This document shows, piece after piece, positions 11,692-16,827 of a stretch of 64,000 nucleotides of DNA. A program made the position numbers and the translations under genes. Under the pieces are notes generated by a model. That model saw only the letters and a program-made list of their open reading frames with translations. It was not told the DNA's origin and searched no databases. The stretch's first letter is position 1. Each line of letters starts with the position of its first letter. Source of the stretch: a virus. Lineage: Duplodnaviria; Heunggongvirae; Uroviricota; Caudoviricetes. Location of the stretch: IMG/VR virus record IMGVR_UViG_3300025861_000004; one strand, written 5' to 3'.

Positions 11692-12612
11692 ATGAACCCA
11701 TCCATCACCGAAGACCCCATCTTGCTTGAGATCCTTGAGAAACACCTGGCGGGCTGTCACCCCGAGGAGGGGGGTTGTCTCCTCAACCTCCTGAAGTGCG
11801 CGGCCGTGTCGGCCTCGGAGCTCCTACAGGTGCTGGTGAGCAGCATCCGCGAGTCGAGCCTCCCCCTCCACACGGACTACCTCATCGCGAGGCTACTGGA
11901 CTTCTCCGCCGACGATGCCATGGGCCAGGTCATCTGGCAGATGGAGGAGGCGAGCCCGCGCGAGCTCTGCCACCTGCTGCACGCGGCCCAGGTCGTGTAC
12001 CGCGAGGCGGACGCGCGGACGCGCATGGAGCTCGACGAGGACGTCTCGAAGGTCTTGCGGAAGCACGGGAAGTCGGACGACGTGACCGTGCGCCGCGCCG
12101 TCGCGGGGTTGGCGCTCGATGTCATCGAGCACGCGGAGTCGGACGCGAAGGAGATGCGGGATGAGCTCGCCGGCCTCGGTGCGCAGGAGGCTGTACAGGT
12201 CGTTCCGAAGATCGTTCAGGCGGACCTGGCGGAGGTGCTCGATGCGCTCAGGAACGATGCGGACCTCCTGGTGCGCATCGCCATCACCTCCTCGCGCACG
12301 CTGCTGCGCGACATGGACCTCCGGCGATCCCTCTTGAGCATCGTCGCGCAGTCCCCGGACGCGGTGGGTCCTGACGTCTGGGTGGCAGCCCTCCACCGCG
12401 TCATGCAGTCGGGCTCCATCGACAAGAAGCTCCTGGACCTGGCGACCCCGCACCTCCCCAGCCCGCACGTCAAGGTGGCGACGGCGGTCGCGTACCTCCT
12501 CGTCTTCGCGGAGACGCACATCGAATCTCTCGTGGACGACTTCGAGGCGCTCAGCTCCGGTCCGTGCGACTCTCCGACTTGCCGGAAGCATGGCACGCAC
12601 CTCCCTTCCTGA
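11692..12612 (+). CDS. hypothetical alpha-helical repeat protein
   Basis: ATG at 11692 lies 25 nt downstream of the motif TCAGCTCGTCCCG (11654-11666). The ORF track extends it to 11497. Confidence 0.5.
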   Translation: MNPSITEDPILLEILEKHLAGCHPEEGGCLLNLLKCAAVSASELLQVLVSSIRESSLPLHTDYLIARLLDFSADDAMGQVIWQMEEASPRELCHLLHAAQVVYREADARTRMELDEDVSKVLRKHGKSDDVTVRRAVAGLALDVIEHAESDAKEMRDELAGLGAQEAVQVVPKIVQADLAEVLDALRNDADLLVRIAITSSRTLLRDMDLRRSLLSIVAQSPDAVGPDVWVAALHRVMQSGSIDKKLLDLATPHLPSPHVKVATAVAYLLVFAETHIESLVDDFEALSSGPCDSPTCRKHGTHLPS

Positions 12613-15600
12613 GCAGAAGACCTTCCGCCCCTACCAGGCCGACCTGCTCCGCGACCTCACGTCGTACCTCGGGCAGAGCTCTGAGGTGGTCCTCTCGGCC
12701 CCTACGGGGGCGGGCAAGACCCTCATCCTCCAGGGGCTCGTCACCAACATCGTGAACCCCAAGGATCCGGTCCCCAACCGGTTCAAGGGCGCGGTCGTAG
12801 CTGTTCCGCAGATACAGATCGAGGACGGATTCTCGGTGGAGGAGTTCGACAGGGAGGTTACCTTCCAACCTGAGGAGGGGGACATGCTCCATTCGTGTCC
12901 CCTCGTCATCCGCACGACTGACTGGGTCAAGGGGCGGGACCGAGAGCACGAGGGGAAGACGTGCAAGAAGTTCCTCCTGCACCTCAAATCTCCCCGAGTC
13001 AAGGCGATGATCACCACGCACCAGGCGATCTCCCTGTGGTTCACCCAGCACATCAAGACCTGGCCCTCTTCCTTGAAGGATCGGCTCCTCGTCATCGACG
13101 AGTCCCACCTGGCGGGACAGGACAACAAGCTCGGTCAGGTCGCTAAGCTGTGGGTGGAGCGGGGTGGCAAGGTGGTCTACGCGACCGCGACCCCCTGGCG
13201 TACCGACGGCCGTCTCGTGGCCCCCGACAACAACTTCTGGGCCGTCCGCACGCTCGCGGAGCACATCGACGGGGGTGAGTACGCTCCCGGCAAGCTAGAC
13301 GTCCGCACCCACCTCACGTGCCTGCGGGCCGAGACGGCCGCCCAGGTGGCGGGGGATCGGCTCGGCCGGGGAGACACGGAGGCGTCGTGCGCGGACACCG
13401 TGCGTTTGTGGGATGAGGACGGTCGTCCCAAGGCCGTCATCAACGTCCCCCTAGACGCCTGCTCCCGCGAGTGGGCGCAGGCGCTTGTGAAGGCGTTCCA
13501 GGCCCTGCCAAACCCGCCGCGCGTCCACAACGCGGTCGGTACAGATCTTGAGGTGGGGCAAGCGCTTCAGGTCGCTCTGCGGGAGGAGCGGGGTGTCAAG
13601 CGGTTCAAGGACTCGAAGGTCGACGTGTTCATCGCGTGCCGGCGGTTCGAGCTCGGGACCGACTGGCCGCTCTGCTCGCACGTCTACAACATCGGTCTCA
13701 CGTCGTCCTTCTCCCGCATCCTCCAGATGCTCGGTCGGGCACTCCGCAACAAGAATGAGATCGAGGACTACCCCGAGCGGTATCGGGGCCTCGCCCGCTT
13801 CACCTTCCTCATCGCGCGGTCCTCGAAGGCCGTCTGGGCCGACTACTTTCTGCGTCACACGGACCACAGCTACCTCCTGGCGATCTTCATGCAGGACCGT
13901 AAGACGGGCCAGACACTTCTGCGCGAGGTGTCCAGGGAGCTCGGAGGACACGGCCCCCGCCCCGGTAGGCGGGAGACCCGCATTGCCTACCGCAACACCG
14001 TCAGGTCCATCCTCAACCTCCTCCGCATGGACGAGATGGAGACCCGCCACGTCGTCAAGGAAATCGTGCGGGCGGAGATCGAACTGGAGCAGCTAGGGCG
14101 TCCGACCACTAATGACGCCGTCCTCGCCCACCTCACGGACCGGGGGGCCGATCGGAGGACGATCGACGCGGTCGTGCGGTTCTACGGCCACAACGGAAGC
14201 AAGCGGTTCAAGGACGCCGTGGCGCGCGGCATGAAGGCCCTCGCGGAGGGCTGTCCCGCCAGGATCATACGACGGGACCTTCAGGCCGTTTTTGACGCGG
14301 CGATCGAGGAGTTTGGGAAAGACAGGTCGATCGTCAGGGAGGGAGCCTTCCAGCACCTCGCCGAGCTGTCAGGACGCACGGCGATCGAGATCGCCGACCT
14401 CATGCGGTCACGTATCGGTGATCGAGAAAGTCTTTCGCTTGAACTAATAGACAAAGCGATCATCGCTTACGCGAAGGATCACGAGGGTCGCGGTCCTAAC
14501 GTGAAGTCGGGGGACGCAACCACGTATTTTGGGCATAAAAGGACGTGGGTGTCAGTTGATAAGCAACTAGGAGGTCGAGGGTCAAGCTTAGCAAAACGGT
14601 CGATCGAGCTTGGGTTAGAAGTGAGCTCTCAAAACTACGAGCTTACGGACGAGGTTATCGACAAAGCGATCATCGCTTACGCGAAGGATCACGAGGGTCG
14701 CGGTCCTAACGTGAAGTCGGGGGACGCGACTACGTATTTTGGATATAAAAGGACGTGGCTGTCAGTCGCTATTCAACTAGGACGTCGAGGGTCAAGCCTA
14801 CCAAAACGGTCGATCGAGCTTGGGTTAGAAGTGAGATCTCGTAACTACGAGCTTACGGACGAGAGTATTGACAAAGCGATCATCGCTTACGCGAAGGATC
14901 ACGAGGGTCGCGGTCCTAACGTGAAGTCGGGGGACGCGACCACGTATTTTGGATATAAAAGGACGTGGGTGTCAGTTGATAAGCAACTAGGAGGCCGAGG
15001 GTCAAGCCTACCAAAACGGTCGATCGAGCTTGGGTTAGAAGTGAGATCTCGTAACTACGAGCTTACGGACGAGAGTATTGACAAAGCGATCATTGCCTAC
15101 GCGAAGGATCACGAGGGTCGCGGACCTAGCGCAAAGTCGGGGGACGCGACCACGTATTTTGGATATAAAAGGACGTGGATGTCAGTTGATAATCAACTAG
15201 GAGGTCGAGGGTCAAGCCTACCAAAACGGTCGATCGAGCTTGGGTTAGAAGTGAGCTCTCATAACTACGAGCTTACGGACGAGGTTATCGACAAAGCGAT
15301 CATTGCCTACGCGAAGGATCACGAGGGTCGCGGTCCTAACGTGAAGTCGGGGGACGCAACCACGTATTTTGGATATAAAAGGACGTGGGTGTCAGTTGAT
15401 GATCAACTAGGAGGTCGAGGGTCAAGCTTAGCAAAACGGTCGATCGAGCTTGGGTTAGAAGTGAGCTCTCAAAACTACGAGCTTACGGACGAGGTTATCG
15501 ACAAAGCGATCATTGCCTACGCGAAGGATCACGAGGGTCGCGGACCTAACGTAAAGTCGGGGGACGCGACCACGTATTTTGGATATAAAAGGACGTGGGT

Positions 15601-16509: not shown

Positions 16510-16560
16510 TCAGCTCGCACCCCATCCCGTTTCCACACGAACCCTAAAAGGAGCCTGCTC

Positions 16561-16827
16561 ATGCCCACTCAGAACCGAACCTGGTCCGAAGTCGACAAGA
16601 CCCTCAAGAAGGCCCAGTCCAAGCTGACCGTCAAGGCGGTCGAGGCCGCGATCAAGAAGTACGCCGCCCAGCACGGGCGTTCGCCCAAGAGTACCGATGG
16701 GGACGCCTCGGCGTACATCGGGATGGACAAGACGTGGCGCGCGGTCAACGACTTCCTGCGAGAGAAGGGCGAGACGCTCCTCCAGCGGGCCGCCAAGCTC
16801 CTCCCCAAGACCACGCGCCCCAAGTAG
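16561..16827 (+). CDS. stand-alone HA-like domain protein (homolog of the helicase repeat unit)
   Basis: VEAAIKKYAAQHGRSPKSTDGDASAYIGMDKTWRAVNDFLREKGETLLQRAAKL aligns with the repeat KAIIAYAKDHEGRGPNVKSGDATTYFGYKRTWVSV. AAAGGAG Shine-Dalgarno upstream. Confidence 0.55.
   Translation: MPTQNRTWSEVDKTLKKAQSKLTVKAVEAAIKKYAAQHGRSPKSTDGDASAYIGMDKTWRAVNDFLREKGETLLQRAAKLLPKTTRPK

What the first reader, a model, noticed from the sequence alone, without database searches (positions are those of the whole stretch)
12590..16827. SF2 helicase with about seven near-identical 70-aa HA-like repeats of atypically low GC, plus a stand-alone copy of the domain
The helicase core (motifs Q, I, II DESH, III, VI QMLGRALR) occupies 12590-14400. 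From 14440 to the stop, a 210-bp unit is repeated about seven times with only a handful of substitutions per copy, and with about 52% GC against about 68% around it.

Each unit encodes ...IDKAIIAYAKDHEGRGPNVKSGDATTYFGYKRTWVSVDKQLGGRGSSLAKRSIELGLEV.... Its spacing of conserved residues resembles the Pfam helicase-associated (HA) domain, which is known for occurring in multiple copies in bacterial helicases. A free-standing 88-aa protein (16561-16827) is a diverged single copy.

The near-identity at the DNA level implies very recent expansion or ongoing gene conversion. The GC contrast implies horizontal origin of the repeat. The array could be a rapidly evolving nucleic-acid or protein-recognition module.
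Basis: partly seen in the sequence, partly recalled or inferred. Interest (0 to 1): 0.7.

Follow-up and report, generated by a model that had tools for sequence, protein, structure and literature searches.

The report
Phage helicase with unstable repeat tail
A helicase gene of a very large phage ends in seven almost identical copies of a small, uncatalogued helical domain that probably holds the enzyme on DNA; it is not the known HA domain, its copy number differs between otherwise identical assemblies, and its low GC is a feature of such repeat arrays rather than a sign of recent foreign origin.

Summary
ORF 12590-15898 (1102 aa) is an SF2 helicase that ends in seven in-register 210-bp (70-aa) units, 91-96% identical at the DNA level. 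GC is 0.51 in the array against about 0.65 around it. ORF 16561-16827 is a diverged single copy of the same domain.

- **Not HA.** The unit fails every sequence test for Pfam HA (PF03457). It belongs to a large family with no Pfam or NCBIfam model (2112 clusters), usually found in arrays. Some sister helicases carry true HA arrays at the same position, so the two look like analogues.
- **Not recent transfer.** The low GC is a third-codon-position effect (GC3 0.54 against 0.86). It recurs in 9 of 11 related arrays and is absent from single copies.
- **Homogenised here.** The closest relatives have diverged units (about 60% aa). The reticulate SNP pattern indicates gene conversion.
- **Copy number unsettled.** Otherwise identical assemblies carry 7, 7, 6, 3, 2 and 2 units, which reflects either real instability or assembler collapse.

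A conserved, translationally coupled partner (15895-16509), fused to the helicase in relatives, models as a class I methyltransferase fold.

The likely function, inferred only, is a multivalent DNA tether for a helicase-methyltransferase-like module.

The parts
12590..15898 (+). Whole gene: SF2 (ResIII/DExH-type) helicase with a C-terminal repeat array, 1102 aa.
   Evidence: ORF. Pfam ResIII, DEAD and Helicase_C all score above gathering. phrog_16 'DNA helicase' E = 6.8e-19. 25 homologues found, including P0001-P0025.
12590..13789 (+). Helicase core, about aa 1-400, with motifs I (APTGAGKT), II (DESH), III (TATP) and VI (QMLGRALR).
   Evidence: Sequence read. Pfam stretches at aa 10-202 and 333-387. 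Invariant columns in the family alignment A3. GC3 of core plus linker (12590-14422) is 0.86.
13790..14422 (+). Conserved linker between the core and the array, about aa 401-611.
   Evidence: Alignable across the family and ends in the conserved FTGxDA..IA.RLR motif just before the first unit. No Pfam family covers it. It has normal GC; the fall begins in the bin starting at 14300.
14423..14632 (+). Repeat unit 1. The head is diverged; residues 46-47 are DK.
   Evidence: Closest to the first units of P0003 and P0002, which indicates positional orthology.
14633..14842 (+). Repeat unit 2. Residues 46-47 are AI.
14843..15052 (+). Repeat unit 3. Residues 46-47 are DK.
15053..15262 (+). Repeat unit 4. 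Residues 46-47 are DN.
15263..15472 (+). Repeat unit 5. Residues 46-47 are DD.
15473..15682 (+). Repeat unit 6. Residues 46-47 are AI. One unit's worth of sequence at the unit 6/7 boundary is missing from the otherwise identical contig L001.
   Evidence: The deletion breakpoint lies somewhere in 15472-15606.
15683..15892 (+). Repeat unit 7. Residues 46-47 are DG. The repeat ends after codon 59, followed by a basic tail KRYKSILTKKRTKR.
15895..16509 (+). Conserved 204-aa partner gene. Its ATG overlaps the helicase stop (ATGA). It has a class I methyltransferase-like Rossmann fold.
16561..16827 (+). Stand-alone 88-aa protein holding a single diverged copy of the repeat domain, with normal GC3 (0.92).
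   Evidence: Unit HMM domain E = 4e-12. Wide-profile E = 9.8e-14. About 35% identical to the units. GC3.

Best explanation
**What it is.** This is the accessory tail of an SF2 helicase from a very large phage. The same sequence lies on contigs of up to 273 kb.

The tail is a tandem array of a roughly 70-aa four-helix domain, here called 'domain X'. Its family consensus is PDLTEEQILAWADAFHARTGKWPTQKSGDASEYPGETWSAIDSALRKGGRGLPGGSSLAKLLAEHGLK. The domain has no Pfam or NCBIfam model but is common in metagenomes, mostly as arrays of 3-14 copies.

In this helicase family the C-terminal slot is filled by domain X arrays, by a single domain X, or by genuine HA arrays. Domain X is therefore best read as a functional analogue of HA, not a member of it.

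**Proposed mechanism (inferred).**
- Each unit is a small HTH/HhH-like nucleic-acid-binding module.
- The array gives the translocase multivalent, largely sequence-independent grip on DNA. Topoisomerase V's tandem (HhH)2 domains do this for its catalytic domain.
- The helicase works with the translationally coupled methyltransferase-fold partner, which is fused to it in relatives.

**Evolution (shown).**
- In this lineage the units were homogenised by gene conversion or unequal crossing-over.
- The number of units differs between otherwise identical assemblies.
- The low GC is a GC3 depression specific to multi-copy arrays across the family, so it is not a mark of recent transfer.
For: **Helicase core:**

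**Phage setting**
- Neighbourhoods of all relatives are rich in ORFans.
- 13 relatives lie on IMG/VR viral contigs of 4.6-223 kb, 12 of them 41 kb or longer.
- The window carries a tmRNA, a tRNA, and NAPRTase, PTH2 and AlkB-like genes.
- The identical partner protein lies on a 273-kb contig.

**Domain family**
- 55 repeats from 14 proteins align with P25, A12, G30, D31 and W42 invariant or nearly so.
- A profile search of 1.84 billion representatives finds 2112 proteins at E <= 1e-3 and 409 at E <= 1e-30, with 3-14 matched stretches among the best 150.
- Architectures include Mrr nuclease + ResIII helicase + 14 repeats, and proteins made only of repeats.
- No curated model covers the domain.

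**Fold**
- AF2 pLDDT 92.5, with helices at 6-19, 33-36, 42-51 and 56-62.

**Slot shared with HA**
- P0015 has the same core plus PF03457 repeats.
- The HA NMR structure was reported as indicating DNA binding (title of Mills et al. 2013, as listed in PMC12191111).

**Partner module:**

**Homogenisation**
- Unit identity is 88% aa here against 59-62% in P0002 and P0003. The first and last units keep positional orthologues.
- 43 of 66 site pairs fail the four-gamete test.
- pN/pS is 0.27-0.41, so the units remain under purifying selection.

**Copy number**
- Cluster members are 1102, 1032, 822, 752 and 752 aa with an identical core.
- L001 equals the window minus 210 bp and L029 equals the window minus 840 bp, with zero other mismatches.

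**GC3:**
Against: - **No HHH hit.** No Pfam HHH family is hit by any of 55 repeats.
- **Near-neutral charge.** By my own residue count the unit is near-neutral, not strongly basic. No tool was run on this.
- **Protein binding is equally compatible.** Small helical repeats can bind proteins, and the data fit that too.
- **Weak partner model.** The partner model has low confidence (pLDDT 58.6) and no sequence-level methyltransferase hit.
- **Thin evidence for phage origin of the window.** No structural phage gene lies in the window. Neither the core nor the repeats match any of 50,697 deposited phage genomes.
- **GC3 drop unexplained.** Two arrays (L022, L023) lack it.
Confidence: 0.55

Rival explanations
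1. The units are true, if diverged, members of the Pfam helicase-associated (HA, PF03457) family.
For: - The architecture matches: tandem copies of 65-70 aa, C-terminal to an SF2 helicase.
- The layout is similar by eye: a first helix ending in hG..P, a central G..W/LG..V helix, and a last helix ending in LG(L/F).
- A sister helicase has real HA repeats in the same slot.
- hhalign aligns the first helix plus the G..P motif.
Against: - PF03457 is not hit at E <= 1 by the whole protein or by one unit.
- None of 55 repeats hits it at E <= 10.
- hhalign probability is 0.9% (55 repeats against 5 HA repeats) and 8.9% (250 against 150), over only 14-20 columns.
- Cross-HMM searches give a best E of 0.05 in tiny databases.
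- The family profile does not find the solved HA chain 2kta in the PDB at E <= 10.
Confidence: 0.12
2. The seven-copy array is partly an assembly product. The true array has another length, and the differences between assemblies are collapses of a short-read graph rather than biology.
For: - Otherwise 100% identical contigs from different assemblies carry 7, 7, 6, 3, 2 and 2 units.
- All short forms are in-register chimeras of the seven units with no new SNP.
- Exact in-register runs between units reach 134, 112 and 110 nt, enough to confuse k-mer graphs.
- At least one short form comes from a contig named k141_, which by my own knowledge looks like MEGAHIT naming.
Against: - The array itself is real. 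Every assembly has at least 2 units, relatives have 4-8 diverged units that cannot collapse, and the frame stays open with pN/pS < 1.
- The seven-unit form was assembled independently on two long contigs, 273 kb and 159 kb.
- Units differ at enough sites (4-9%) for paired reads to order them.
Confidence: 0.45
3. The array was recently acquired from a lower-GC donor, which explains its 51% GC.
For: The array has the lowest GC in the 64-kb window. It uses codons that are nearly absent from the helicase core: TTA 10 against 0, AAA 22 against 2, TAT 14 against 1, TCA 15 against 2.
Against: - The drop is sharp at the array borders inside a single gene.
- It also occurs in the arrays of L002, L003, L004, L005, L008, L009, L012 and L021, and in the HA array of L007.
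- Their helicase cores are only 27-71% identical to this one (30-71% for the loci with a whole-protein figure) and have GC3 0.73-0.93.
- Single-copy domain X on related helicases shows no drop, and neither does the stand-alone 88-aa gene here.
- First and last units have positional orthologues in relatives, so the array is ancestral.
Confidence: 0.07
4. The array is a rapidly diversifying recognition module for a specific DNA sequence or protein. Specificity residues would sit on the exposed face of helix 3, by analogy with TALE repeats.
For: - Amino-acid differences between units cluster on helix 42-51, at residues 43, 46, 47 and 51.
- Codon 47 has five states in seven units, with all three codon positions variable.
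- Copy number appears labile.
Against: - The hot spot is not significant against a uniform model (P = 0.058).
- Overall pN/pS is 0.27-0.41.
- The same positions are simply the exposed, unconserved columns across the whole family.
- No target sequence is known.
Confidence: 0.08
5. The 210-bp repeats act at the DNA level, for example as iterons or an origin embedded in a replication gene as in lambda gene O. The coding capacity would be secondary.
For: This is a lower-GC repeated stretch inside a helicase gene. GC skew is positive and steady across the array.
Against: - The units are conserved as protein but diverged as DNA in relatives, at 59-73% nt identity.
- Purifying selection acts on the protein.
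- The same domain occurs as arrays in more than 2000 unrelated proteins.
- No short conserved DNA motif was searched for or found.
Confidence: 0.03

Closest known systems
Pfam HA, helicase-associated domain (PF03457; solved example 2KTA, BVU_0683 residues 627-691)
   Same: - Unit size is about 65-70 aa and all-helical.
- It occurs as tandem copies C-terminal to SF2/ResIII helicases and next to nucleases.
- It occupies exactly the same slot in a sister helicase of this family, P0015.
- HA was reported to bind DNA (reference listed in PMC12191111).
   Different: - There is no detectable sequence homology.
- The signature residues differ: SGDA, TW and GGSSL here, against GH..VP, DG.KLG and GF.W in HA.
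Tandem (HhH)2 domains of Methanopyrus kandleri topoisomerase V
   Same: - A small catalytic module is followed by a long tandem array of small helical DNA-binding units: 12 (HhH)2 domains (PMC9489208, abstract).
- Grafted HhH motifs improve the salt tolerance and replication performance of a polymerase (PMC8313265, title).
- This is the model for how an array could tether the helicase.
- The family consensus LPGGSSLAKLL resembles the HhH hairpin motif LPGIG..A..I. That resemblance comes from my own reading and is a lead only.
   Different: - No Pfam HHH family is hit by any of 55 repeats.
- The only trace is a sub-threshold TIGR00426 ComEA HhH hit in one relative, 20.5 bits against a cut-off of 53.1.
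- The units in this window lack the LPG of the consensus.
Pfam HNH_repeat, homing-endonuclease-associated repeat (PF18780)
   Same: It is a short helical repeat attached to nucleic-acid enzymes. There are faint hits in relatives: 2 of 55 repeats at E = 0.023, plus summed scores in P0028 and P0130 just above the gathering cut-off of 26 bits (26.4 and 26.5) but with no individually significant stretch.
   Different: No single stretch is significant, and the unit in this window gives no hit.
Concertedly evolving tandem-domain arrays with labile copy number, such as bacterial surface-protein repeats and TALE repeats (named from general knowledge)
   Same: - Units are nearly identical at the DNA level.
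- The SNP pattern is mosaic.
- Length variants differ by whole units.
- Terminal units are more diverged than internal ones.
   Different: - This array sits on an intracellular phage helicase.
- There is no evidence for a residue code or for positive selection.

Membership tests
SF2 helicase (ResIII / DEAD + Helicase_C) | Pfam models for both RecA-like lobes score above their gathering thresholds. | tested here: met
   ResIII 31.0 bits against 22.5, DEAD 28.9 against 26, Helicase_C 28.0 against 23.5. phrog_16 'DNA helicase' E = 6.8e-19.
SF2 helicase (ResIII / DEAD + Helicase_C) | Walker A (motif I), DExH (motif II), motif III and the motif VI arginines are present. | tested here: met
   APTGAGKT, VIDESH, ATATP and QMLGRALR are read in the translation. 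They are invariant in the family alignment: T39, G40, G42, K43, D170, E171, H173, Q379, G382, R383 and R386.
SF2 helicase (ResIII / DEAD + Helicase_C) | ATP-dependent translocation or unwinding activity. | not testable with these tools
   Needs biochemistry.
Pfam HA domain (PF03457) | Match to the PF03457 HMM. | tested here: not met
   No hit at E <= 1 for the whole protein or one unit. None of 55 family repeats hits at E <= 10.
Pfam HA domain (PF03457) | Profile-profile homology to bona fide HA repeats. | tested here: not met
   hhalign probability 0.9% (A1 against A2). Probability 8.9% with 250 domain X repeats against 150 HA repeats, 20 columns aligned. Cross-HMM best E is 0.05.
Pfam HA domain (PF03457) | Same fold as the solved HA domain 2KTA. 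| tested here: inconclusive
   [not shown]
Pfam HA domain (PF03457) | Tandem copies associated with bacterial or phage helicases. | tested here: met
   Seven copies lie C-terminal to the helicase. The same slot is occupied by HA in P0015.
Uncurated 'domain X' repeat family (defined here by profile A1 / x_nr) | Significant match to the family profile and presence of the P25, G30-D31 and W42 signature. | tested here: met
   The seven units give domain E of 1e-42 to 5e-51 against the unit-derived HMM, which is circular. The independent 88-aa ORF gives E = 4e-12. The wide profile gives 5e-12 for the helicase and 9.8e-14 for the 88-aa ORF. There are 2112 library proteins at E <= 1e-3.
Helix-hairpin-helix (HhH) DNA-binding repeats | Match to Pfam or NCBIfam HhH models. 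| tested here: not met
   No HHH family appears among the hits of 55 repeats at E <= 10. There is only a sub-threshold TIGR00426 hit in relative P0134.
Class I SAM-dependent methyltransferase fold (partner ORF 15895-16509) | Rossmann-like alternating beta/alpha fold matching solved methyltransferases. | tested here: inconclusive
   [not shown]
Class I SAM-dependent methyltransferase fold (partner ORF 15895-16509) | Sequence match to a methyltransferase family, or a canonical GxGxG SAM motif. | tested here: not met
   No Pfam, PHROG, NCBIfam or PADLOC hit. No PDB sequence hit at E <= 10. The candidate motif I reads DWLELAG, not GxGxG.
Known anti-phage defence helicases (PADLOC models) | Significant match to a defence-system helicase model. 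| tested here: not met
   Only weak generic helicase-lobe hits; the best is PbeA at E = 2.7e-5, 21 bits.

The most novel reading that the evidence does not exclude
Domain X arrays are modular nucleic-acid readers. Each unit would contact DNA through the exposed face of helix 3 (residues 43, 46, 47 and 51, the positions that differ between the near-identical units here). Unit order and number, which change quickly by unequal recombination, would then set where a phage helicase-methyltransferase machine acts. The array-specific use of rare low-GC codons would be an adaptive signature of such arrays, either slowing translation so that near-identical neighbouring domains fold separately or limiting recombination.
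Probability: 0.08. Interest if true: 0.8.

Novelty: new variant of a known kind. Interest (0 to 1): 0.45.

Why it matters
- **An uncatalogued domain family.** The work defines a large family of about 70-aa repeats (more than 2000 clusters at 50% identity, arrays of up to 14 units). It sits where HA domains sit on phage and restriction-like helicases, and HA itself has no established function. A homogenised seven-unit array with natural 2-, 3-, 6- and 7-unit variants is a ready-made series for testing what such tails do.
- **A reusable caution about local GC.** The array-specific GC3 depression recurs across distant relatives and even in HA arrays, but is absent from single copies. A local GC dip inside a gene therefore need not mean horizontal transfer. 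It also poses a testable question about codon choice in tandem-domain proteins of high-GC genomes.
- **A caution about assemblies.** Copy numbers of such arrays in metagenome assemblies cannot be taken at face value.

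Tried and rejected
- **Deposited phages.** Megablast of 12590-16827 against 50,697 phage records found nothing. tblastn of the core and of two-unit queries from this window and from P0006 also found nothing. 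The family is known only from metagenomes and MAGs.
- **Core against the PDB.** phmmer with the core gave no hit at E <= 0.01.
- **Defence systems.** PADLOC gave only weak generic helicase hits, so a known defence-system reading was dropped.
- **Repeat profile against the PDB.** Only insignificant hits appeared: the Ku70 SAP region 1jjr at E = 0.0075 with no significant stretch, and the Rap1 Myb domain 1fex at E = 1.2. These were not used as evidence.
- **Spurious family hits.** Many Pfam, PHROG and NCBIfam hits to the whole protein (FDX-ACB, IF2_N, E1_4HB, GroES, MafI and others) have zero individually significant stretches. They are sums over the repeats and were rejected.
- **Positive selection.** pN/pS is 0.27-0.41 and the hot-spot test gives P = 0.058, so this was not supported.
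- **Recoding to reduce recombination as the cause of low GC3.** Codon identity at conserved residues is below the core-usage expectation in L002 (0.42 against 0.55) and L004 (0.48 against 0.52). It is above expectation in L003 and L005. The result is not uniform, so the cause stays open.
  - The afdb50 fold library was not available.
  - The HA structure paper PMC3637686 is not held.
  - P0232 could not be located on a contig.

Full report
**1. The observation**

ORF 12590..15898 (+) encodes 1102 aa. Its first 400 or so residues carry the SF2 helicase motifs: FRPYQ, APTGAGKT, VIDESH, ATATP and QMLGRALR. Pfam ResIII, DEAD and Helicase_C all score above their gathering cut-offs. PHROGs gives phrog_16 'DNA helicase' at E = 6.8e-19.

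Tandem Repeats Finder reports one array at 14450-15860: period 210, 6.7 copies, 94% matches, no indels. In protein register there are seven 70-aa units starting at 14423 + 210*i. Only the head of unit 1 and the last 11 codons of unit 7 depart from the repeat. Pairwise DNA identity over the shared part is 91-96%.

GC is 0.50-0.525 through the array and about 0.65 on either side. The bin holding the array is the lowest-GC 2-kb bin of the 64-kb window.

The 88-aa ORF 16561-16827 matches an HMM built from the units at E = 4e-12 and is about 35% identical to them.

**2. Relatives and setting**

A search of 5.8 billion proteins found 25 homologues of the helicase.

- The closest are P0002 (68% identical) and P0003 (71%). 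They have 7 and 5 units of the same domain, but those units are only about 60% identical to one another.
- More distant ones (P0004-P0011, 30-35%) have 4-8 diverged units.
- Others carry a single copy at the C-terminus.
- P0015 has the same core followed by five genuine Pfam HA (PF03457) repeats.

The evidence that this is phage DNA is as follows.

- All neighbourhoods are dense with short ORFs of no known family, with occasional phage markers: T5orf172, DUF5131 and DUF2460.
- Thirteen relatives lie on IMG/VR viral contigs of 4.6-223 kb, twelve of them 41 kb or longer. Others lie on MAG contigs binned as Pirellulaceae or Planctomycetota.
- The window itself carries a tmRNA (Rfam 162.5 bits), a tRNA, and NAPRTase, PTH2, AlkB-like oxygenase, SPFH, NUDIX and DNA methyltransferase genes.
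- The identical downstream protein is on a contig of 273 kb.

I conclude that this is a very large phage, possibly of Planctomycetota. The host call is weak. No structural phage gene lies in the window, and nothing matches deposited phage genomes.

**3. Is the unit an HA domain?**

I tested this four ways.

- **Pfam.** PF03457 is not hit by the protein or a unit at E <= 1, nor by any of 55 family repeats at E <= 10.
- **Small profiles.** hhalign of the 55-repeat alignment A1 against the five HA repeats of P0015 (A2) gives probability 0.9% over 14 columns.
- **Wide profiles.**
  - I collected 54 proteins that all carry PF03457.
  - From them I extracted 242 HA repeats; from relatives I extracted 913 domain X repeats.
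  - I compared non-redundant sets of 150 and 250.
  - hhalign probability was 8.9% over 20 columns, covering only the first helix and the G..P turn.
  - Cross-HMM searches gave a best E of 0.05 in these tiny databases.
- **Structure.**
  - An AlphaFold2 model of one unit, made with the 55-sequence alignment, is confident: pLDDT 92.5, helices at 6-19, 33-36, 42-51 and 56-62.
  - The top hits are HTH DNA-binding domains: GadX/AraC, TetR family and the sigma-54 DNA-binding domain.

Membership in HA is therefore not supported. The shared slot in sister helicases argues for equivalent function, and at most for very distant common ancestry.

**4. What the unit is**

A profile search of 1.84 billion cluster representatives found 2112 proteins at E <= 1e-3, 1248 at E <= 1e-10 and 409 at E <= 1e-30. 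The 150 best have 3-14 matched stretches each.

Architectures include Mrr nuclease + ResIII helicase + 14 repeats (P0027), and proteins that consist of repeats alone.

Neither Pfam-A nor NCBIfam has a model for it. The apparent hits are sums over repeats with no significant stretch.

The family consensus is PDLTEEQILAWADAFHARTGKWPTQKSGDASEYPGETWSAIDSALRKGGRGLPGGSSLAKLLAEHGLK. P25 is invariant, and A12, G30, D31 and W42 are nearly so. Its LPGGSSLAKLL segment recalls the helix-hairpin-helix motif. This is only a lead: no HHH model is hit, and the units here lack the LPG.

**5. The low GC**

The drop is at third codon positions.

| Region | GC3 |
|---|---|
| Helicase core | 0.86 |
| Repeat array | 0.54 |
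| Downstream partner gene | 0.86 |
| 88-aa gene | 0.92 |

GC2 is unchanged. The array uses codons that are almost absent from the core: TTA 10 against 0, AAA 22 against 2, TAT 14 against 1, TCA 15 against 2.

The same drop occurs in the arrays of relatives whose units are diverged.

| Locus | GC3 core | GC3 array |
|---|---|---|
| L002 | 0.88 | 0.44 |
| L003 | 0.93 | 0.70 |
| L004 | 0.90 | 0.61 |
| L005 | 0.89 | 0.75 |
| L008 | 0.81 | 0.60 |
| L009 | 0.73 | 0.59 |
| L012 | 0.92 | 0.55 |
| L021 | 0.87 | 0.69 |

It also occurs in the HA array of L007: 0.73-0.82 in the core against 0.56-0.62 in the array. Two arrays lack it (L022 and L023). Four single-copy C-terminal domains lack it (L014-L017).

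The low GC is thus a property of multi-copy arrays in this family, not of the domain and not of this genome alone. Recent horizontal origin is not supported.

I tested one cause, synonymous diversification that lowers DNA identity between units. The result was mixed. Slow translation to let similar neighbouring domains fold separately would fit the difference between single copies and arrays, but it is untested. The cause remains unexplained.

**6. Homogenisation and copy number**

Units here are 78-96% identical in protein (mean 88%), against 59-62% within P0002 and P0003. The first and last units are each closest to the first and last units of the relatives. This is the pattern expected of concerted evolution of internal units.

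Among 12 informative sites in 153 nt, 43 of 66 pairs fail the four-gamete test. That points to exchange between units. Synonymous divergence between units is about 0.15 and pN/pS is 0.27-0.41. The array is therefore neither brand new nor under detectable positive selection. The five-state codon 47 is not a significant hot spot (P = 0.058).

The 90%-identity cluster of this helicase has five members of 1102, 1032, 822, 752 and 752 aa. They differ by exact multiples of 70 aa and share an identical core.

- Contig L001 equals the window over 14.6 kb with zero mismatches apart from a clean 210-bp deletion.
- L029 equals the window apart from a clean 840-bp deletion.
- The short forms are in-register chimeras of the seven units with no new SNP.
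- Exact runs shared between units reach 134 nt.

The data cannot separate real unequal-recombination variants from assembler collapse. The seven-unit form was assembled twice, on 273-kb and 159-kb contigs.

**7. The partner gene**

The helicase stop overlaps the start of ORF 15895-16509 (ATGA).

- Homologues of this 204-aa protein follow the helicase directly in L005 and L007 and lie one gene away in L004.
- They are fused in frame to the helicase in P0002, P0003 and P0227.
- Conserved motifs are DWxELAG, GVD/GIS, GVLVYD and FLLVLN.
- No sequence-level family hit exists.

The helicase and a methyltransferase-fold protein thus form a conserved two-gene, sometimes one-gene, module. The fold assignment is provisional.

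**8. Mechanism proposed**

What is shown:
- an SF2 helicase with a conserved linker;
- a C-terminal array of a small four-helix domain;
- a coupled partner;
- a stand-alone copy of the domain.

What is inferred:
- The units bind nucleic acid. The grounds are an HTH-like fold, the slot shared with HA (which was reported to bind DNA), and occurrence next to nucleases and helicases.
- The array acts as a multivalent tether that raises residence time or reach on DNA. The 12 tandem (HhH)2 domains of topoisomerase V are the model (PMC9489208), as are HhH grafts on polymerases (PMC8313265).
- The 88-aa protein could compete with or mimic a single unit. This is speculative.

I put about 0.55 on this composite. 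The anatomy is secure; the function is the uncertain part.

**9. Verdict**

The finding is real and its anatomy is now much better defined. The HA label and the horizontal-transfer inference do not hold.

It is a new variant of a known kind: a helicase with a tandem accessory-domain tail, built from an uncurated domain family.

The points of wider interest are the array-specific GC3 depression and the whole-unit length variants between otherwise identical assemblies.

Noticed in passing
window 56024-56383 (+) and 7896-7971 (-): A full-length tmRNA (Rfam RF00023, 162.5 bits; ARAGORN tag peptide ANDNSVRLAA) and a tRNA-Ile with anticodon AAT lie in what looks like phage DNA. Either the phage encodes its own tmRNA, or the tmRNA marks a host junction.
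   Followed up: partly
window 15895-15898, compared with P0002, P0003 and P0227: The helicase and its 204-aa partner are separate genes here, overlapping by ATGA. They form one fused protein in three relatives. The two frames differ by one nucleotide near ...LTKK. This is gene fission or fusion, or possibly a frameshift site.
   Followed up: partly
[not shown]
   Followed up: partly
window 10396-11238 (-) and 16831-17394 (+): Two nuclease-like ORFs flank the helicase module. Both hit phrog_21138. The first also hits Pfam Tn7_TnsA-like_N and phrog_218; the second gives only marginal hits to phrog_218 and to Holliday-junction-resolvase/endonuclease PHROGs.
   Followed up: no
window 41144-42487 (+) and the 36-44 kb stretch: A DDE_Tnp_1 transposase with a SWIM zinc finger lies inside a stretch of lower GC (0.61-0.63) that has few high-GC3 ORFs. 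This suggests an insertion sequence or other foreign segment.
   Followed up: no
window 21748-22146 (-), 23901-24761 (+), 28616-30025 (+), 31043-32998 (+), 46227-47249 (-), 59532-60794 (+): Auxiliary genes of the kind seen in very large phages: PTH2 peptidyl-tRNA hydrolase, an AlkB-like 2OG-Fe(II) oxygenase, NAPRTase, an SPFH/Band 7 protein, a NUDIX-peptidase fusion and a DNA methyltransferase.
   Followed up: no
L007 10001-12814 (P0015), and L002-L005, L008, L009, L012, L021: GC3 falls by 0.14-0.44 inside tandem-domain arrays relative to the rest of the same gene. This holds even when the array is made of true HA repeats (L007). It does not hold for single-copy domains (L014-L017) or for two arrays (L022, L023). 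The cause is unknown.
   Followed up: partly
L014 4887-7204 and L016 2965-3582, 5456-9875: In two IMG/VR relatives, further ORFs next to the helicase also carry domain X repeats. The domain is therefore spread over several genes of the same phage.
   Followed up: no
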